DNA from: a virus
Lineage: Duplodnaviria > Heunggongvirae > Uroviricota > Caudoviricetes
Length of the DNA stretch: 8,162 bases
IMG/VR virus record: IMGVR_UViG_2651869724_000008
Direction: 5' to 3' (one strand)
The notes below the pieces were generated by a model, which saw only the letters and a list, made by a program, of their open reading frames with translations, was not told where the DNA came from and made no database searches. The translations under genes were made by a program, and so were the position numbers. Each line of letters begins with the position of its first letter. Position 1 is the first letter of the stretch. Of this stretch, positions 1,806 through 8,162 are shown in pieces.

Positions 1806-2504
1806 ATGCAGGATATTCCACAGGAAACACATCATGAGACGACACGCCTCACTCAGTCAGCCCAGGTGGTGCTCTGGGAAATCGATCTGACAGAGGTCGG
1901 TGGTGAACGTTATTTTTTCTGTAATGAGCAGAACGAAAAAGGTGAGCCGGTTACCTGGCAGGGGCGGCAGTATCAGGCATACCCCATTCAGGGGACGGGA
2001 TTTGAACTGAACGGCAAGGGCAGTGCTGCCCGTCCGACACTGACGGTTTCTAACCTGCACGGCATGGTCACGGGGATGGCGGAAGACCTGCAGAGTCTGG
2101 TCGGCGGAACGGTGGTCAGGCGTAAGGTTTACGCCCGTTTTCTGGATGCGGTGAACTTCGTCAACGGAAACAGCGACGCCGATCCGGAGCAGGAGGTGAT
2201 CAGCCGCTGGCGCATCGAGCAGTGCAGCGAACTGAGTGCGGTCAGTGCCTCCTTTGTGTTGTCCACACCGACGGAAACGGACGGCGCTGTTTTTCCGGGG
2301 CGCATCATGCTGGCCAACACCTGCACCTGGACCTATCGCGGTGATGAGTGCGGTTATAGCGGTCCGGCTGTCGCGGATGAATATGACCAGCCGACGTCCG
2401 ATATCACGAAAGATAAATGCAGCAAATGCCTGAGTGGCTGTAAGTTTCGCAATAACGTCGGCAACTTTGGCGGCTTCCTTTCCATTAACAAACTTTCGCA
2501 GTAA
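1806..2504 (+). CDS. L: Minor tail protein L (tail tip; C-terminal Cys cluster)
   Basis: 232-aa ORF, the same length as lambda gpL. AGGAGG at 1795-1800 lies 5 nt upstream of the ATG at 1806. The C-terminal region carries clustered cysteines (C173, C182, C205, C208, C212 in CTWTYRGDECGYSGP...CSKCLSGCKF). Confidence 0.93.
   Translation: MQDIPQETHHETTRLTQSAQVVLWEIDLTEVGGERYFFCNEQNEKGEPVTWQGRQYQAYPIQGTGFELNGKGSAARPTLTVSNLHGMVTGMAEDLQSLVGGTVVRRKVYARFLDAVNFVNGNSDADPEQEVISRWRIEQCSELSAVSASFVLSTPTETDGAVFPGRIMLANTCTWTYRGDECGYSGPAVADEYDQPTSDITKDKCSKCLSGCKFRNNVGNFGGFLSINKLSQ
2322..2441 (+). other. Cysteine cluster in the C-terminus of L (putative Fe-S cluster ligands)
   Basis: Five Cys within 40 residues (C173, C182, C205, C208, C212). 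Lambda gpL-family proteins have been reported to coordinate an iron-sulfur cluster through C-terminal cysteines. Confidence 0.55.
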
Positions 2505-2509
2505 ATCCC

Positions 2510-3253
2510 ATGACAGAGACAGAATCAGCGATTCTGGCGCACGCCCGGCGATGTGCGCCAGCGGAGTCGTGTGGCTTCGTGGTGAGAACGCCGGAAGGGG
2601 AAAGATATTTTCCCTGCGTGAATATCTCCGGTGAGCCGGAGGCGTATTTCCGGATGTCGCCGGATGACTGGCTGCAGGCAACACTGCACGGTCAGATTGT
2701 GGCGCTGGTCCACAGTCACCCCGGTGGTCTGCCCTGTCTGAGTGAAGCCGACCGGCGGCTGCAGGTGCAGAGTGATTTGCCGTGGTGGCTGGTCTGCCGG
2801 GGGGCGATTCACAAGTTCCGCTGTGTGCCGCATCTCACCGGGCGGCGCTTTGAGCACGGGGTGACGGACTGTTACACACTGTTCCGGGATGCTTACCATC
2901 TGGCGGGAATTGAGATGCCTGATTTTTATCGTGAGGATGACTGGTGGCGTCACGGTCAGAATCTCTATCTGGATAATCTGGAGGCAACGGGGCTGTATCA
3001 GGTTCCGTTGTCAGCGGCGCAGCCGGGCGATGTGCTGCTGTGCTGTTTTGGTTCATCGGTGCCGAATCATGCCGCCATTTACTGTGGTGACGGCGAGCTG
3101 CTGCACCATATTCCTGAACAACTGAGCAAACGAGAGAGGTATACCGACAAATGGCAGCGACGCACACACTCCCTCTGGCGTCACCGGGCATGGCACGCAT
3201 CTGCCTTTACGGGGATTTGCAACGATTTGGCCGCCGCATCGACCTTCGTGTGA
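2510..3253 (+). CDS. K: Tail tip assembly protein K; N-terminal JAB/MPN (JAMM) metalloprotease-like domain plus C-terminal NlpC/P60-like cysteine peptidase domain
   Basis: 247-aa ORF starting 5 nt after the L stop. It contains HSHPGGLPCLSEAD (an H-x-H-x7-S-x2-D JAMM motif, aa 68-81) and a Cys...His...His arrangement (C121 in DCYTLF, H187, H199/H200) typical of NlpC/P60. The 3' end overlaps the I start by 103 nt in another frame, as I recall for lambda K/I. The classical lambda K annotation (199 aa) corresponds to the internal Met at 2654; I prefer the 2510 start (see findings). Confidence 0.88.
   Translation: MTETESAILAHARRCAPAESCGFVVRTPEGERYFPCVNISGEPEAYFRMSPDDWLQATLHGQIVALVHSHPGGLPCLSEADRRLQVQSDLPWWLVCRGAIHKFRCVPHLTGRRFEHGVTDCYTLFRDAYHLAGIEMPDFYREDDWWRHGQNLYLDNLEATGLYQVPLSAAQPGDVLLCCFGSSVPNHAAIYCGDGELLHHIPEQLSKRERYTDKWQRRTHSLWRHRAWHASAFTGICNDLAAASTFV
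2711..2752 (+). other. JAMM/MPN+ metal-binding motif (HxHx7Sx2D) within K
   Basis: Codons CAC AGT CAC ... encode HSHPGGLPCLSEAD (K residues 68-81), read directly from the sequence. Confidence 0.7.
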
Positions 3254-3792
3254 AAACGGGTGCCGAAGCCATCCGGGCGCTGGCCATGCAGATCCCGGCG
3301 TTTCGTCAGAAACTGAGCAACGGCTGGTATCAGGTACGGATTGCCGGGCGTGATGCAGGCGAAAACGAATTATCAGCCCGTCTTAATGAGCCGCTGGAAA
3401 ATGGTGCCGTGATCCACATCGTTCCGCGTCTTGCGGGAGCCAAAAGTAGCGGTGTTTTTCAGGCGGTGCTGGGTGCGGCGTTGATTGCTACGGCAATCTG
3501 GATGCCGGGGATCAGTATCGCTTTCAGTGACATTCTCTTTTCAATGGGTGCGGCGATGACGCTTGGAGGCGTTGCGCAGATGCTGGCACCGAAAGCCAGT
3601 ACCGCAACAACGACCAGCACGGATAACGGTAAGCAGAACACGTATTTCTCATCACTGGATAACATGGTTGCCCAGGGCAATGTTCTGCCTGTTCTGTACG
3701 GTGAAATGCGTGTGGGGTCACGGGTAATTTCGCAGGAAATCAGCACGGCAGACGAAGGGGATGGTGGTGAAATCGTGGTGATTGGTCGCTGA
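3151..3792 (+). CDS. I: Tail assembly protein I (ubiquitin-like N-terminal region plus hydrophobic C-terminal region)
   Basis: 213-aa ORF MAATHTLPLASPGMARICLYGDLQRFGRRIDLRVKTG..., recognisable as lambda gpI. GAGAGAGG at 3132-3139 lies 11 nt upstream of the ATG. An in-frame TGA at 3115-3117 excludes an earlier start. Stop TGA at 3790-3792. Confidence 0.9.
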   Translation: MAATHTLPLASPGMARICLYGDLQRFGRRIDLRVKTGAEAIRALAMQIPAFRQKLSNGWYQVRIAGRDAGENELSARLNEPLENGAVIHIVPRLAGAKSSGVFQAVLGAALIATAIWMPGISIAFSDILFSMGAAMTLGGVAQMLAPKASTATTTSTDNGKQNTYFSSLDNMVAQGNVLPVLYGEMRVGSRVISQEISTADEGDGGEIVVIGR

Positions 3793-3852: not shown

Positions 3853-6800
3853 ATGGGTAAAGGCAGCAGTAAGGGGCATACCCCGCGCGAAGCGAAGGAC
3901 AACCTGAAATCCACGCAGTTGCTGAGTGTGATCGATGCCATCAGTGAAGGGCCGGTTGAAGGTCCGGTGGATGGCTTAAAAAGCGTGCTGCTGAACAGTA
4001 CGCCGGTGCTGGACAGTGAGGGGAATACCAATATCTCCGGCGTCACGGTGGTGTTCCGGGCAGGTGAGCAGGAGCAGACACCGCCGGAGGGATTTGAATC
4101 CTCCGGCTCCGAGACGGTGCTGGGTACGGAAGTGAAGTACGACACGCCGATTACCCGGACCATCACGTCGGCAAACATCGACCGTCTGCGCCTGACCTTC
4201 GGTGTGCAGGCACTGGTGGAAACCACCTCAAAGGGGGACCGGAATCCGTCGGAAGTCCGCCTGCTGGTTCAGATACAACGTAACGGTGGCTGGGTGACGG
4301 AAAAAGACATCACCATTAAGGGCAAAACCACCTCGCAGTATCTGGCCTCGGTGGTGGTGGGTAACCTGCCGCCGCGCCCGTTTAATATCCGGATGCGCAG
4401 GATGACGCCGGACAGCACCACAGACCAGCTGCAGAACAAAACGCTCTGGTCGTCATACACCGAAATCATCGATGTGAAACAGTGCTACCCGAACACGGCA
4501 CTGGTCGGCGTGCAGGTGGACTCGGAGCAGTTCGGCAGCCAGCAGGTGAGCCGTAATTATCATCTTCGCGGACGCATTCTGCAGGTGCCGTCGAACTATA
4601 ACCCGCAGACGCGGCAATACAGCGGTATCTGGGACGGAACGTTTAAGCCAGCATACAGCAACAACATGGCCTGGTGTCTGTGGGATATGCTGACCCACCC
4701 GCGCTACGGCATGGGGAAACGTCTTGGTGCGGCGGATGTGGACAAATGGGCGTTGTATGTCATCGGCCAGTACTGTGACCAGTCAGTGCCGGACGGCTCT
4801 GGCGGCACGGAGCCGCGCATCACCTGTAATGCGTACCTGACCACACAGCGCAAGGCGTGGGATGTGCTCAGTGATTTCTGCTCGGCGATGCGCTGTATGC
4901 CGGTATGGAACGGGCAGACGCTGACGTTCGTGCAGGACCGACCATCAGATAAGGTGTGGACCTATAACCGCAGTAATGTGGTGATGCCGGATGATGGCGC
5001 GCCGTTCCGCTACAGCTTCAGCGCCCTGAAGGACCGCCATAATGCCGTTGAGGTGAACTGGATTGACCCGAACAACGGCTGGGAGACGGCGACAGAGCTT
5101 GTGGAGGATACGCAGGCCATTGCCCGTTACGGTCGTAACGTCACGAAGATGGATGCTTTTGGCTGTACCAGCCGGGGGCAGGCACACCGCGCCGGGCTGT
5201 GGCTGATTAAAACAGAACTGCTGGAAACGCAGACCGTGGACTTCAGCGTGGGCGCAGAAGGGCTTCGCCATGTGCCGGGCGATGTCATTGAAATCTGTGA
5301 TGATGACTATGCCGGTATCAGCACCGGCGGGCGCGTGCTTGCGGTGAACAGCCAGACCCGGACGCTGACGCTCGACCGTGAAATCACGCTGCCATCCTCC
5401 GGTACCACGCTGATAAGCCTGGTTGACGGAAGTGGCAATCCGGTCAGCGTGGAGGTTCAGTCCGTCACCGACGGCGTGAAGGTGAAAGTGAGCCGGGTTC
5501 CTGACGGCGTTGCCGAATACAGCGTATGGGGGCTGAAGCTGCCGACGCTGCGCCAGCGCCTGTTCCGCTGCGTGAGTATCCGTGAGAACGACGACGGCAC
5601 GTATGCCATCACCGCCGTGCAGCATGTGCCTGAAAAAGAGGCTATCGTGGATAACGGGGCGCACTTTGACGGCGACCAGAGCGGAACGGTGAATGGTGTC
5701 ACGCCGCCAGCGGTGCAGCACCTGACCGCCGAAGTCTCGGCAGACAGCGGGGAGTATCAGGTGCTGGCCCGCTGGGACACGCCGAAGGTGGTGAAGGGAG
5801 TGAGCTTTATGCTTCGCCTGGCTGTGGCAGCAGACGACGGCAGTGAGCGGCTGGTCAGCACGGCCCGGACGACGGAAACCGAATATCGTTTCAGGCAACT
5901 GGCGCCGGGGAACTACAGGCTGACAGTCCGGGCGGTAAATGCGTGGGGACAGCAGGGCGACCCGGCGTCGGTATCGTTCAGGATTACCGCACCGGCAGCG
6001 CCTGTCACTATTGAACTGATACCGGGGTATTTTCAGATAACGGCGGTCCCGAAACTGGCTGTATATGACCCGACGGTACAGTTTGAGTTCTGGTTCTCGG
6101 AAAAGCGGATTACCGATATCAGGCAGGTTGAAACCACAGCCCGCTATCTTGGTACGGCGCTGTACTGGATAGCCGCCAGTATCAATATCAAACCGGGCCA
6201 TGATTATTACTTTTATATCCGCAGTGTGAACACCGTTGGTAAATCGGCATTCGTGGAGGCTGTCGGTCAGCCGAGTGATGATGCATCAGGCTATCTGGAT
6301 TTTTTCAAAGGAGAGATAGGGAAAACCCATCTGGCTCAGGAGCTGTGGACGCAGATTGATAACGGTCAGCTTGCGCCTGACCTGGCTGAAATCAGGACGT
6401 CCATTACGGATGTCAGCAATGAAATCACACAGACCGTCAATAAGAAACTGGAAGACCAGAGTGCAGCGATCCAGCAGATACAGAAGGTTCAGGTTGATAC
6501 AAATAATAATCTGAACAGCATGTGGGCTGTGAAGCTGCAGCAGATGCAGGACGGACGCCTTTATATTGCGGGTATCGGTGCCGGTATTGAGAACACCCCC
6601 GACGGCATGCAGAGTCAGGTGCTGCTGGCGGCAGACAGGATTGCGATGATTAATCCTGCAAATGGCAACACAAAGCCGATGTTTGTTGGTCAGGGTGATC
6701 AGATATTCATGAACGACGTGTTCCTGAAGCGTCTGACGGCCCCGACCATCACCAGCGGCGGCAATCCTCCGGCATTTTCCCTGACACCGGACGGGCGGCT

Positions 6801-7350
6801 GACGGCGAAAAACGTTGATATCAGCGGTAACGTGAATGCGAACTCAGGAACGCTCAACAATGTCACGATAAGTGAGAACTGTACGATTAAGGGCATGCTG
6901 GAGGCGACCCAGGTCAGAGGGGATTTCGTTAAAGCTGTATCAAAAGCCTTCCCGAAAAAAGTCGGTACGTGGGGTAACACGGAAACGCCAGACGGGACGG
7001 TTACAGTCACCATCAGCGATGATCATAACTTTGACCGTCAGATTATTATTCCGCCCATTATTTTTAACGGTATAGCGTATACCGATCCGGGAAGTGGTAA
7101 TAATCCGGGAGGTACAAGGTACACGGGTTATGGATTTGAAGTTCGCAAAAACGGCGTATTAATCGCATCCAGAGAAACTAAAGGGGCCATTCCCGGTAGT
7201 TACAGTGCGGTTATTGATATGCCGGGTGGCAGGGGAAGCGTCACTCTGGAGTTTAAGATTTTCCAGAAAGGCAATCAGGGGGCAGGCAATATCACCGACT
7301 GTACGGTGATTGTGACCAAAAAAGCGGCTTCCGGCATCAGTATTCGTTGA
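3853..7350 (+). CDS. J: Host specificity protein J (central tail fibre / tail tip protein)
   Basis: 1165-aa ORF. The first ~800 aa ([34 protein letters not shown]...) are near-identical to my recollection of lambda gpJ. GGAG at 3841-3844 lies 8 nt upstream of the ATG. The central part contains fibronectin-III-like repeats (e.g. [33 protein letters not shown]). The C-terminal ~150 aa appear divergent from lambda J. Confidence 0.95.
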
Positions 7351-7368
7351 AATTGTTATAACCCATAT

Positions 7369-7399
7369 AAGGGCACCAGAAATGGTGCCTTTTTTATTT
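7369..7399 (+). terminator. Rho-independent terminator-like hairpin immediately downstream of J
   Basis: AAGGGCACC (7369-7377), loop AGAAAT, GGTGCCTTT (7384-7392) give a stem of up to 9 bp with one G-U pair, immediately followed by a T-run (TTTTTTATTT, 7390-7399). It sits 19 nt after the J stop and 12 nt before the stf ATG. Confidence 0.55.
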
Positions 7400-7410
7400 G
7401 TGGAGTGAGT

Positions 7411-8162
7411 ATGGCAGTACAGATTTCAGGTGTACTGAAAGATGGTGCGGGAAAACCAATACAGAACTGCACCATTCAACTGAAAGCCAGACGGACCAGC
7501 AGCACGGTGGTGGTGAACACGGTGGCCTCTGAAAATCCGGATGAAGCCGGTCGTTACAGCATGGACGTTGAGTACGGGCAGTACAGCGTTATTCTGTTGG
7601 TGGAAGGATTCCCGCCATCCCATGCCGGGACCATCACCGTGTATGAAGATTCTCAACCGGGGACGCTGAATGATTTTCTCGGTGCCATGTCGGAGGATGA
7701 CGTCCGGCCGGAGGCACTGCGTCGTTTTGAACAAATGGTGGAAGAGGCAGCGCGTCATGCCGGGGAGGCGAAGAAGAATGCCGGAGAGGCAGAGACGTCC
7801 GCGAGGAATGCCGGCATATCAGCCAGTCAGGCAGAAAAGAGCGCTGCACATGCTGACACTTCAGCAGGATATGCATCGGAGTCAGCCCGGCAGGCGGCAG
7901 AAAGTGCAGCCTCAGCAAAGCAGTCAGAGGAGGCGTCCTCGTCCTCGGCCTCTGAGGCCGCTCAAAAAGCCAGTGAGTCATCACAAAGTGCAGCAGAAGC
8001 TGAATTGTCAAGAAAGACGGCAGAAAGTGCAGCCGGTAATGCAGCCAGGGATGCAACGACCGCAGCAGAAAAAGCCCGGGAGTCAGCAGAAAGCGCACAG
8101 TCAGCGGAACAAAGCAGGATAGCGGCGGAAGACGCCGTAAACCGAATCCCCACCGTGGTGGG
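7411..8162 (+). CDS. stf: Side tail fibre protein Stf, N-terminal ~250 codons (3' end lies beyond the window)
   Basis: Frame 1 is open from ATG 7411 to the window end, checked by manual translation; this ORF is missing from the supplied track because it has no stop inside the window. N-terminus MAVQISGVLKDGAGKPIQNCTIQLKARRTSSTVVVNTVASENPDEAGRYSMDVEYGQYSVIL matches the lambda Stf (orf-401) N-terminus from memory, followed by an Ala/Ser/Glu-rich repetitive shaft region. GGAG at 7402-7405. Confidence 0.88.
   Translation, partial: MAVQISGVLKDGAGKPIQNCTIQLKARRTSSTVVVNTVASENPDEAGRYSMDVEYGQYSVILLVEGFPPSHAGTITVYEDSQPGTLNDFLGAMSEDDVRPEALRRFEQMVEEAARHAGEAKKNAGEAETSARNAGISASQAEKSAAHADTSAGYASESARQAAESAASAKQSEEASSSSASEAAQKASESSQSAAEAELSRKTAESAAGNAARDATTAAEKARESAESAQSAEQSRIAAEDAVNRIPTVV
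7747..8130 (+). repeat. Degenerate short-period Ala/Ser/Glu-rich coding repeats in the stf shaft region
   Basis: The protein shows reiterated units such as AGEAKKNAGEAETSARNAG / SAAHADTSAGYASESARQAAESAASAKQSEEAS / KASESSQSAAEAELSRKTAESAAGNAARDATTAAEKARESAESAQSAEQS. The DNA repeats GCAGAAAG(T/C)GC-like motifs at about 7832, 7897, 8021 and 8086. Confidence 0.5.

What the first reader, a model, noticed from the sequence alone, without database searches (positions are those of the whole stretch)
2510..3253. K encodes two predicted peptidase domains and is best read from the upstream start at 2510
The 247-aa ORF contains a complete JAMM signature HSHPGGLPCLSEAD (aa 68-81) with candidate upstream Glu residues (E19, E29, E31), followed by an NlpC/P60-like Cys/His/His set (C121, H187, H199/H200). 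Starting at the internal Met at 2654 (equivalent to the classical 199-aa lambda annotation) would remove the N-terminal part of the JAB domain, including the candidate Glu. The 2510 ATG is only 5 nt after the L stop, consistent with translational coupling. A tail assembly factor with two intact predicted peptidase active sites is functionally intriguing: it could process tail proteins or act on peptidoglycan.
Basis: partly seen in the sequence, partly recalled or inferred. Interest (0 to 1): 0.5.

Follow-up and report, generated by a model that had tools for sequence, protein, structure and literature searches.

The report
Lambda-type tail protein K, full length
This is the ordinary full-length (247-residue) version of phage lambda's tail-assembly protein K, which carries two intact protease domains as first described in 2006; the shorter 199-residue textbook version traces to a single base missing from the 1982 lambda reference sequence.

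Summary
Window 2510-3253 is an intact 247-codon ORF. It starts 5 nt after the L stop and lies in a lambda-type H-M-L-K-I-J tail-tip cluster.

Pfam, a high-confidence AlphaFold model and a fold search all show an N-terminal JAB/JAMM metalloprotease domain (E19, H68, H70, S78, D81). They also show a C-terminal NlpC/P60 cysteine peptidase domain (C121, H187, H199).

The upstream start is strongly supported:
- Codons 1-48 hold the catalytic Glu and are under purifying selection (pN/pS 0.11).
- They align from residue about 1-10 in homologues down to 26% identity.
- Met49 is usually Ile in those homologues.

The two-domain architecture was published in 2006 (Iyer, Burroughs, Aravind). NCBI's pipeline already annotates 247 aa in prophages.

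Lambda's 199-aa K exists only because J02459/NC_001416 lacks one G at 14266/14267. Other lambda-derived sequences have it.

Most likely function: a non-virion maturation peptidase that removes the ubiquitin-like N-terminal domain of protein I. This is inferred, not shown.

Verdict: real, correctly read, already known, modest interest.

The parts
1806..2504 (+). Gene L (minor tail / hub protein), immediately upstream; its TAA stop is at 2502-2504
   Evidence: Pfam Phage_tail_L, E 1.2e-99; ORF list
2510..3253 (+). Gene K, full-length 247-aa CDS (28.1 kDa): tail-tip assembly protein with JAB + NlpC/P60 domains
   Evidence: ORF; Pfam; AF2 pLDDT 96.4, pTM 0.91; fold matches; 234/247 identical to lambda K read with the extra G
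2505..2512 (+). L-stop to K-start junction: 5-nt spacer ATCCC plus the ATG. No Shine-Dalgarno, so initiation probably depends on ribosomes terminating on L
   Evidence: Anti-SD pairing +0.7 kcal/mol. ATG and the spacer are kept in all 27 unique close relatives. L-K gaps of 1-3 nt in Mannheimia, Vibrio and HK633 phages
2519..2803 (+). JAB/JAMM (MPN+) metalloprotease domain, aa 4-98
   Evidence: Pfam PF14464, 50.4 bits. Foldseek matches to P. furiosus JAMM1 5ld9/5lda (TM 0.66-0.68), 2kks, AMSH and CSN5. phmmer to 2kks, E 3.4e-5
2564..2566 (+). Codon for E19, the predicted catalytic Glu of the JAMM site (P-A-E-S-C-G). It lies in the 48 codons lost in the 199-aa reading
   Evidence: Conserved in 149/157 homologues. 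Aligns to the E of NEACG in 2kks
2711..2752 (+). JAMM motif HSHPGGLPCLSEAD (H68, H70, S78, D81)
   Evidence: H68, H70 and D81 are invariant in the 46-sequence alignment A1. 152-153 of 157
2638..2656 (+). Internal start candidate: SD-like GGAGG (2638-2642), the G at 2644 that is absent from the lambda reference sequence, and ATG 2654 (Met49)
   Evidence: Anti-SD pairing -9.5 kcal/mol, about 10 nt spacing. Met49 is not conserved (Ile in most homologues). 1-nt difference mapped
2840..3181 (+). NlpC/P60 (C40, papain-like) cysteine peptidase domain, aa 111-224. Catalytic codons: C121 at 2870-2872, H187 at 3068-3070, H199 at 3104-3106
   Evidence: Pfam PF00877, 48.3 bits. Foldseek matches to MepS/Spr, LytE and C. 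difficile Acd autolysins. C121 151/157, H187 152/157, H199 152/157
3151..3253 (+). K/I overlap. The last 34 codons of K are read in another frame as the start of I. Variation follows the I frame, not the K frame
   Evidence: Variable sites by K codon position are 1, 8, 1 (K position 2 = I position 3). pN/pS in the K frame is 12.4
3151..3792 (+). Gene I, the proposed substrate of K. It has an N-terminal Lambda_tail_I (ubiquitin-like) domain ending in ..PRLAGAKSSG, hydrophobic helices and a C-terminal plug domain. The true start is probably ATG 3190 (Met14)
   Evidence: Pfam PF06805 on aa 14-97, E 1.4e-23. Distant I homologues start at the position of Met14 and share a G-x-K-x-G-G-[VIL]-[FL]-[QN]-x-[VI]-L-G motif. 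Matches lambda gpI chains 8iyk etc.

Best explanation
Window 2510-3253 encodes the normal, full-length form of lambda-type tail-tip assembly protein K. It is a 247-residue cytoplasmic protein made of a JAB/JAMM zinc metalloprotease domain (aa about 4-98; E19, H68, H70, S78, D81) fused to an NlpC/P60 papain-like cysteine peptidase domain (aa about 111-224; C121, H187, H199).

Translation starts at ATG 2510, probably by coupling to termination of L five bases upstream.

K is an assembly factor that does not stay in the virion. The most likely mechanism is that K works on the J-I-L tail-tip precursor as a maturation peptidase. Its JAB domain, acting like a deubiquitinase or desampylase, would cut protein I at the Gly-rich end of I's ubiquitin-like N-terminal domain (..PRLAG-AKSSG-VFQ..). 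Only the C-terminal 'plug' part of I would then remain in the finished tip. The NlpC/P60 domain would assist in this cleavage or perform a second one.

Shown here: the ORF, the start-site evidence, both domains, and conservation of both active sites.
Inferred: catalytic activity, the substrate and the cleavage site.

Confidence by part: about 0.95 for the gene model and domain architecture; about 0.5 for 'K cleaves I'.
For: Gene model
- ATG 2510 is the first start of the ORF.
- Codons 1-48 vary mostly at third positions (4/1/11), with pN/pS 0.11 against 0.20 for codons 49-213.
- tblastn: 1725 of 1762 phage records cover at least 80% of the query, with alignments starting at residues 1-8 down to 26% identity.
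- Full-length 230-260-aa homologues at 35-60% identity align from residues 2-10.
- Met49 is Ile in most homologues.
- PGAP annotates the 247-aa form in the prophage closest to this window, and K-like DNA is present in 4374 of 5426 complete E. coli genomes.

Domains
- Pfam matches above cutoff.
- AF2 pLDDT 96.4, with helix 3-15 and strands 21-27 and 30-36 inside the first 48 residues.
- Foldseek hits to JAMM1 (including its complex with the ubiquitin-like SAMP2), AMSH and CSN5, and to MepS, LytE and Acd.
- Both catalytic sets are kept in about 150 of 157 homologues.

Mechanism
- Conserved L-K-I-J neighbourhood.
- Iyer et al. 2006 found that JAB always travels with the ubiquitin-like I and proposed this cleavage.
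- K was not detected in lambda virions by mass spectrometry.
- Only the C-terminal part of gpI is seen in three lambda structures: residues 135-223, 134-222, or from 101 on.
- The single gpI peptide in virion MS (9.87% coverage) can only be tryptic peptide 202-223 (this assumes trypsin was used).
- In F-pyocin the gpI homologue loses its N-terminal region during maturation. The gpK homologue PA0639 is essential for the tip and absent from particles, and the protease is unidentified.
- I homologues share a G-x-K-x-G-G motif at the end of the Lambda_tail_I domain.
Against: - No enzymatic activity of any K homologue of the JAB + NlpC/P60 type has been reported in the papers I could search.
- The missing N-terminal domain of gpI in cryo-EM maps could reflect flexibility rather than cleavage. 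One lambda model starts at G101, inside the G-G pair, so the exact cut site is undefined.
[quoted passage not shown] It is also removed by unknown host proteases when the protein is expressed alone in E. coli. K is therefore not proven necessary or sufficient.
- My AF2 model of I was unusable (pLDDT 46), so the ubiquitin-like fold of I rests on Pfam and on Iyer et al.
- An SD-like GGAGG precedes ATG 2654, so an additional 199-aa product cannot be excluded.
Confidence: 0.6

Rival explanations
1. The NlpC/P60 domain is a cell-wall (peptidoglycan) endopeptidase. It would be carried in or with the tail and used to breach the murein layer during DNA injection, as proposed for the K-position protein g14 of the Rhodobacter gene transfer agent.
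For: - NlpC/P60 enzymes with the closest folds are peptidoglycan hydrolases (MepS, LytE, Acd autolysins).
- RcGTA g14, a 150-aa NlpC/P60-only protein, is reported to degrade R. capsulatus peptidoglycan and is needed for tail formation.
- The lambda field still lacks an identified murein-cleaving enzyme for infection.
Against: - gpK was not detected in lambda virions by mass spectrometry and not resolved in structures. The F-pyocin homologue was undetected in particle proteomics and absent from the cryo-EM structure.
- K scores 26.8 bits against a cutoff of 81.9 for the phage cell-wall peptidase model TIGR02219, so it is not a member of the g14-type family.
- This reading does not explain the conserved fused JAB domain or its linkage to the ubiquitin-like I.
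Confidence: 0.1
2. K is a non-catalytic chaperone or scaffold for the J-I-L tip complex. The peptidase folds would serve only as binding modules, for example gripping the ubiquitin-like domain of I.
For: - K is genetically an assembly factor absent from the product.
- Many MPN and NlpC/P60 proteins are pseudo-enzymes (general knowledge).
- No activity has been reported.
Against: - Both complete catalytic sets (E19, H68, H70, S78, D81; C121, H187, H199) are retained in about 95% of 157 homologues down to about 33% identity. That is not expected for pseudo-enzymes.
Confidence: 0.1
3. The product in lambda-type phages is, or includes, the 199-aa protein initiated at Met49 (ATG 2654). That would give an NlpC/P60 protein with a crippled JAB remnant.
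For: - Strong SD-like GGAGG about 10 nt upstream of ATG 2654, at -9.5 kcal/mol, against none before 2510.
- Met49 is kept in all 27 unique close relatives.
- Several records and gene callers choose this start.
Against: - The GGAGG is made of conserved coding codons (G-E-P-E-A) and is altered in some relatives.
- Met49 is Ile in 21 of 45 homologues at 70-90% identity and in most distant ones.
- Codons 1-48 are under stronger purifying selection than the rest and form core elements of the JAB fold.
- The 199-aa annotation originates from a 1-nt gap in the lambda reference.
- No promoter-like site lies upstream of ATG 2654; the scan found only two such sites, both on the opposite strand inside J.
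Confidence: 0.05
4. K, through one of its two domains, is the unidentified protease that cleaves the tape-measure protein H into H* and its C-terminal fragment. This could be instead of, or in addition to, processing I.
For: - The catalyst and site of gpH cleavage in a Gly-rich region are still unknown.
- The C-terminus of gpH sits directly on the gpI trimer in the tip.
- K has two active sites and there are two maturation cleavages to explain.
Against: - gpH cleavage is reported to occur late, after tail assembly.
- Classically K acts early on the tip initiator (recalled knowledge, not checked here) and is not found in finished tails.
- There is no comparative-genomic link between K and tape-measure cleavage.
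Confidence: 0.12

Closest known systems
Bacteriophage lambda tail-tip assembly protein K (gpK; UniProt TIPK_LAMBD / TAPK family of Iyer et al. 2006)
   Same: - Same gene in the same H-M-L-K-I-J cluster.
- 234 of 247 residues identical to lambda K once the missing G is restored.
- Same JAB + NlpC/P60 architecture as described in 2006.
- Same overlap with gene I.
   Different: The reference lambda entry is 199 aa because of a 1-nt gap at 14266/14267 in J02459. The window carries the intact 247-codon ORF. There are thirteen amino-acid differences.
Prokaryotic/archaeal JAMM (MPN+) proteases that cut ubiquitin-like proteins (P. furiosus JAMM1 with SAMP2, Haloferax desampylase, DSY2949 / PDB 2kks)
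   Same: - Complete E..HxHx7SxxD motif.
- Same fold (TM 0.59-0.68, rmsd 2.5-3.3 A).
- Encoded next to a gene whose N-terminal domain is ubiquitin-like with a Gly-rich C-terminal end.
   Different: - About 20-26% identity only.
- Below the NCBIfam desampylase cutoff (25.7 against 130 bits).
- Fused to a second peptidase.
- The putative substrate is a linear fusion (Ubl-linker-plug protein), not an isopeptide conjugate.
- No E1/E2 partner.
NlpC/P60 (C40) peptidases such as E. coli MepS/Spr, B. subtilis LytE, and RcGTA g14
   Same: - Cys-His-His triad and papain-like fold.
- g14 occupies the same position between the hub and central-fibre genes and is required for tail formation.
   Different: - The closest solved enzymes are known cell-wall hydrolases, whereas K is a phage assembly protein not detected in virions.
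- g14-type proteins lack the JAB domain.
- K does not reach the TIGR02219 cutoff.
F-pyocin PA0639 / PyoF8 (gpK counterpart in Pseudomonas tailocins)
   Same: - Homologue at the same locus position.
- Essential for tip formation.
- Absent from mature particles.
- Its neighbour PA0640 (gpI homologue) loses its N-terminal region on maturation.
   Different: It belongs to a tailocin, not a phage. I did not check its sequence or domain content here. The link between PA0639 and PA0640 cleavage has not been tested.

Membership tests
JAB/JAMM (MPN+) metalloproteases (Pfam PF14464 Prok-JAB) | Profile match above the curated cutoff, covering the whole domain | tested here: met
   50.4 bits against cutoff 25, E 2.3e-13, aa 4-98 on profile positions 4-103 of 114. 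The 199-aa form fails at 21.7 bits
JAB/JAMM (MPN+) metalloproteases (Pfam PF14464 Prok-JAB) | Catalytic motif Glu ... His-x-His-x7-Ser-x2-Asp | tested here: met
   E19; H68, H70, S78, D81. Conserved in 147-153 of 157 homologues
JAB/JAMM (MPN+) metalloproteases (Pfam PF14464 Prok-JAB) | MPN/cytidine-deaminase-like fold | tested here: met
   AF2 pLDDT 96.4. Foldseek 5ld9/5lda TM 0.66-0.68, 2kks, AMSH, CSN5, all probability 1.00.
JAB/JAMM (MPN+) metalloproteases (Pfam PF14464 Prok-JAB) | Zinc binding and (iso)peptidase activity | not testable with these tools
   Needs biochemistry
NlpC/P60 (MEROPS C40) cysteine peptidases (Pfam PF00877) | Profile match above the curated cutoff | tested here: met
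   48.3 bits against cutoff 23, E 1.1e-12, aa 111-224 on profile positions 1-105 of 105
NlpC/P60 (MEROPS C40) cysteine peptidases (Pfam PF00877) | Cys / His / polar third residue catalytic triad, and papain-like fold | tested here: met
   C121, H187, H199 kept in 151-152 of 157. Foldseek matches to MepS, LytE, Acd33800 with TM 0.6-0.68
NlpC/P60 (MEROPS C40) cysteine peptidases (Pfam PF00877) | Hydrolytic activity and substrate (peptidoglycan or protein) | not testable with these tools
   No assay possible. Substrate is unknown
Lambda TAPK / tail-tip assembly protein K family | Two-domain JAB + NlpC/P60 protein encoded between L (hub) and I (Ubl-plug), upstream of J | tested here: met
   Window gene order H-M-L-K-I-J. 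94.7% identity to lambda K. PHROG phrog_30 E 1.3e-157. Same order in mEp460, Burkholderia, Klebsiella and E. coli prophage loci; in Mannheimia and HK633 a short ORF lies between K and I
Lambda TAPK / tail-tip assembly protein K family | Required for tail assembly but absent from the virion | not testable with these tools
   Taken from the literature for lambda and F-pyocin. Not tested for this window's phage
Phage cell-wall peptidase, NlpC/P60 family (NCBIfam TIGR02219; RcGTA g14 type) | Score above the family cutoff | tested here: not met
   26.8 bits against cutoff 81.9
Desampylase (NCBIfam NF041370) | Score above the equivalog cutoff | tested here: not met
   25.7 bits against cutoff 130. 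A resemblance in mechanism only

The most novel reading that the evidence does not exclude
K is the single missing maturation protease of lambda-type tails, and each of its two active sites serves one of the two unexplained cleavages. The JAB site would remove the ubiquitin-like domain of I. The NlpC/P60 site would cut the tape-measure protein H into H* and its C-terminal fragment. Both would be gated by docking of the tip onto the tube.

A more remote variant is also not excluded. The JAB domain might additionally strip ubiquitin-like tags that bacterial defence systems attach to tail fibres (an idea from recalled knowledge, not examined here).
Probability: 0.12. Interest if true: 0.65.

Novelty: already known. 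Interest (0 to 1): 0.25.

Why it matters
K is one of the last lambda morphogenetic proteins without a demonstrated biochemical role. Recent structural papers still call its function or location unknown.

The truncated 199-aa reference entry hides the catalytic Glu and half of the JAB domain. At least one structural review analysed that form and saw only one peptidase domain. UniProt TIPK_LAMBD, RefSeq NC_001416 and several new phage records still propagate it. Anyone cloning 'K' from the reference annotation would express a crippled protein.

Using the 247-aa form makes the 2006 hypothesis directly testable. That hypothesis is a phage ubiquitin-like/deubiquitinase-like maturation step, which is now given context by the processed plug protein in lambda and F-pyocin.

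For the window itself nothing is unusual. It is a standard and very common prophage gene.

Tried and rejected
- **AF2 of protein I**. The result was pLDDT 46, so no fold search was run and the ubiquitin-like fold of I was not independently confirmed.
- **K-I complex prediction.** The structure tool returns no coordinates or PAE (one search shows no model files), so docking of the I tail into the JAB site could not be read out.
- **Natural K-I and L-K fusion proteins** in the database. I considered them as evidence for programmed frameshifting. I rejected that: they are singletons or near-singletons (1-11 member sequences per cluster) with different junctions, consistent with sequencing errors or pseudogenes.
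- **The search for related loci with the diverse alignment A1** failed for lack of a conserved 7-10-column stretch. With the distant homologue P0221 it gave only two partial loci. A wide paired K/I survey was therefore not done.
- **Pfam at E <= 10 on six I N-terminal domains** gave no ThiS/MoaD/ubiquitin family hits, only Lambda_tail_I.
- **Literature searches** for a published statement that lambda K is 247 aa, or that J02459 has an error in K, found none. The only trace is an uninterpreted variant-table entry. The Casjens and Hendrix 2015 review was not available.
- **The long antisense ORF 1857-2684** (275 aa) was considered and dismissed. Nothing examined here gives it any support, while the + strand frame across the same stretch shows clear coding constraint.
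Full report
**What is in the window**

The 8.2-kb window is a lambda-type tail-tip cluster on the + strand:
- the C-terminal part of the tape-measure gene H (to 1467)
- M (1467-1796)
- L (1806-2504)
- K (2510-3253)
- I (3151 or 3190 to 3792)
- J (3853-7350)
- the start of a side-tail-fibre-like gene

The closest phage records are Tritos, mEp460 and cdtI, at 94-95% DNA identity. One E. coli prophage is 99.8% identical over 2400-3400.

**Checking the observation**

The ORF 2510-3253 is 247 codons. An in-frame stop lies at 2486-2488, so ATG 2510 is the first possible start. It sits 5 nt after the TAA of L.

Pfam finds two domains on the 247-aa protein:
- Prok-JAB on aa 4-98, at 50.4 bits against a cutoff of 25, E 2.3e-13
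- NLPC_P60 on aa 111-224, at 48.3 bits against a cutoff of 23

The 199-aa form from Met49 keeps only profile positions 66-103 of the JAB model and drops below the cutoff (21.7 bits). The first 48 residues alone match the N-terminal third of the JAB model.

An AlphaFold2 model built on 46 diverse homologues is very confident, with pLDDT 96.4 and pTM 0.91. It places helix 3-15 and strands 21-27 and 30-36, which are core JAB elements, inside the first 48 residues.

Foldseek against the PDB returns two groups of hits, all with probability 1.00:
- JAMM enzymes: P. furiosus JAMM1 alone and bound to the ubiquitin-like SAMP2, DSY2949, AMSH and CSN5
- NlpC/P60 enzymes: MepS/Spr, LytE and C. difficile Acd autolysins

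No solved chain has both domains.

**Which start is real**

Several independent lines favour 2510.

1. Among close relatives, variable sites in codons 1-48 fall 4/1/11 by codon position, like the rest of the gene at 16/6/50. Summed over 75 unique sequences, pN/pS is 0.11 for codons 1-48 and 0.20 for codons 49-213. These comparisons are not phylogenetically independent.

2. In a tblastn search of 50,697 phage records, 1725 of 1762 matching records cover at least 80% of the 247-aa query. Alignments begin at residues 1-8 even at 26-35% identity. The matching phages infect Klebsiella, Pseudomonas, Burkholderia, Vibrio and Mannheimia.

3. An exhaustive HMMER search gives 2697 hits. The full-length ones (230-260 aa, 35-60% identity) align from query residues 2-10 to the first few residues of the target.

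4. In alignments, E19, C21, G22 and N38 are conserved in about 95% or more of homologues (C21, G22 and N38 invariant, E19 at least 90%, in the 46-sequence set). All four lie upstream of Met49. Position 49 is Ile in most homologues: 60 Ile against 11 Met below 50% identity, and 21 Ile against 19 Met at 70-90%.

5. In distant phages the K homologue is annotated at about 236-253 aa. In Mannheimia, Vibrio and HK633 phages it starts 1-3 nt after L.

6. PGAP annotates 744 nt directly after L in the nearest E. coli prophage.

There is no Shine-Dalgarno sequence before 2510 (+0.7 kcal/mol). That fits termination-reinitiation coupling with L but does not prove it.

ATG 2654 has an SD-like GGAGG about 10 nt upstream (-9.5 kcal/mol). 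This explains why gene callers often pick it, and it leaves room for a minor internal product. That GGAGG is built from the codons for G-E-P-E-A and varies among relatives.

**Why lambda says 199 aa**

This was the unexpected part. In J02459, which is identical to NC_001416 over this stretch, the K frame is closed 18 nt upstream of the annotated ATG 14276.

The ATG 5 nt after L (14133) opens MTQTESAILAHARRCAPAESCGFVVSTPEGERYFPCVNISGEPEA and then runs out of frame. The alignment shows a single missing G: the reference reads GGAGGC-TATTTCC where this window (base 2644), mEp460 and PhiR47_1 read GGAGGCGTATTTCC.

Exact-match searches gave the following:
- The G-less version occurs only in J02459, NC_001416, an 'UNVERIFIED' engineered lambda (OR474059) and one field 'isolate' of reference length (OR974322).
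- The G-containing version is exact in 38 listed records. These include lambda derivatives DE3, KT232076, LC730321 (48,503 bp), PV340536, the imm434 and imm21 hybrids, HK629 and HK630.

Over 1460 nt, PV340536 differs from the reference only by that one base, and with it lambda K is 247 aa.

Independently, whole-genome sequencing of the lambda-gt10 transgene in MutaMouse lists '14266 C>CG' as present in every copy. The authors do not comment on it (PMC6760142).

The simplest reading is an error, or a private mutation, in the sequence determined in 1982. I put this at about 0.85-0.9, but I could not test the original stock.

Annotation remains inconsistent:
- 199 aa in NC_001416, UniProt TIPK_LAMBD, DE3, lambda imm434 and PhiR47_1
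- 211 aa in KT232076
- 247 aa in PV340536 and mEp460

A 2020 review that analysed the 199-aa form reported a single peptidase domain.

**What is already known**

Iyer, Burroughs and Aravind (2006) described TAPK as JAB + NlpC/P60. They showed that it neighbours the ubiquitin-like TAPI in lambdoid and T1-like phages. They proposed that the JAB domain releases the Ub-like domain by cutting at its C-terminal glycine, with the NlpC/P60 domain possibly contributing.

The exact protein of this window is on at least 1000 contigs in public data. One source already names it 'metal-dependent protease of the PAD1/JAB1 superfamily'. K-like DNA occurs in 4374 of 5426 complete E. coli genomes.

**How it most likely works**

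Both catalytic sets are retained in about 150 of 157 homologues. This argues for real enzymes rather than binding modules.

K is required for tail assembly but was not detected in lambda virions by mass spectrometry, nor resolved in structures.

Its downstream neighbour I carries the Lambda_tail_I domain. In homologues from very different phages that domain ends in a shared motif, G-x-K-x-G-G-[VIL]-[FL]-[QN]-x-[VI]-L-G.

In three lambda structures only the C-terminal part of gpI is seen: residues 135-223, 134-222, or from 101 onward.

The virion proteome lists one gpI peptide with 9.87% coverage. Among tryptic peptides with up to two missed cleavages, only residues 202-223 fit that figure. This is my inference and assumes trypsin was used.

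In F-pyocin the gpI homologue demonstrably loses its N-terminal region on maturation. The gpK homologue is essential for the tip and absent from particles, and the authors state that the cleavage mechanism is unknown.

Taken together, the best-supported mechanism is that K is a transient maturation peptidase of the J-I-L tip precursor that removes the ubiquitin-like domain of I. This step is inferred, and I give it about 0.5.

**Rivals**

- A peptidoglycan hydrolase role has support from RcGTA g14. It fits poorly with K's absence from virions and its sub-threshold score for that family.
- A non-catalytic chaperone role is disfavoured by active-site conservation.
- A 199-aa-only product is disfavoured by all the comparative data.
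- Cleavage of tape-measure protein H is possible, since the catalyst is unknown, but it has no comparative support and the timing fits poorly.

**Verdict**

The finding is accurate and well reasoned, but it describes a known architecture in a very common gene. The only added value is the explanation of the 199-aa lambda annotation and the reminder that the full-length form should be used in experiments.

Noticed in passing
window 2644 (corresponds to lambda J02459 between 14266 and 14267); loci L003/L004 vs L091-L094: The lambda reference sequence lacks one G present in this window and in other lambda-derived records and lambdoid relatives. This splits lambda K into a 76-codon out-of-frame ORF plus the annotated 199-aa ORF. 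A MutaMouse lambda-gt10 variant table lists the same insertion (14266 C>CG) without comment.
   Followed up: yes
window 3151-3253 (I start candidates at 3151, 3190, 3217, 3250): The start of gene I is annotated four different ways in public records: ATG giving 213 or 223 aa, ATG Met14 giving 200 aa, TTG giving 191 aa, and GTG overlapping the K stop. Distant I homologues and the Pfam domain begin at the position of Met14 (3190). Only 3151 has an SD-like sequence. The TTG and GTG starts would cut the first strand of the ubiquitin-like domain.
   Followed up: partly
window 3151-3253: In the K/I overlap, nearly all variation among relatives falls on K codon position 2, which is I codon position 3. 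pN/pS in the K frame is 12.4. The I frame therefore dictates evolution here, and the C-terminal 34 residues of K are weakly constrained, although AF2 predicts a helix at 230-244.
   Followed up: partly
proteins P0013, P0029, P0097, P0117 (K-I fusions) and P0010, P0021, P0033 (L-K fusions): Public databases contain sporadic K-I and L-K fusion proteins with different junctions inside the overlaps, each cluster holding only 1-11 member sequences. They look like frameshift errors or pseudogenes rather than programmed frameshifting, but this was not tested.
   Followed up: partly
window 7351-8162: J is followed by a strong terminator-like hairpin (7369-7392, then a T-run). After it comes an ORF from ATG 7411 that runs off the window. 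It begins MAVQISGVLKDGAGKPIQNCTIQLKARR.., which from memory resembles the N-terminus of lambda Stf, and continues into an Ala/Ser/Glu-rich repetitive stretch. There is no lom-like gene between J and this ORF, unlike the closest E. coli prophage.
   Followed up: no
window 3853-7350: J here is 1165 aa, against 1132 aa in lambda and 1159 aa in the nearest E. coli prophage. The receptor-binding end probably differs from lambda's.
   Followed up: no
PHROGs result for window 2510-2653: phrog_7305 is a 76-position family of 'unknown function' that matches K residues 1-75. It appears to be made of N-terminal K fragments, and its length equals that of the 76-codon out-of-frame ORF created by the lambda-reference frameshift. 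It is probably an annotation artefact family.
   Followed up: no
window 1857-2684, minus strand: A 275-codon antisense ORF (GTG start) spans most of L and the start of K. Nothing examined here supports it, and the + strand frames across the same stretch show clear coding constraint. It is probably spurious.
   Followed up: no
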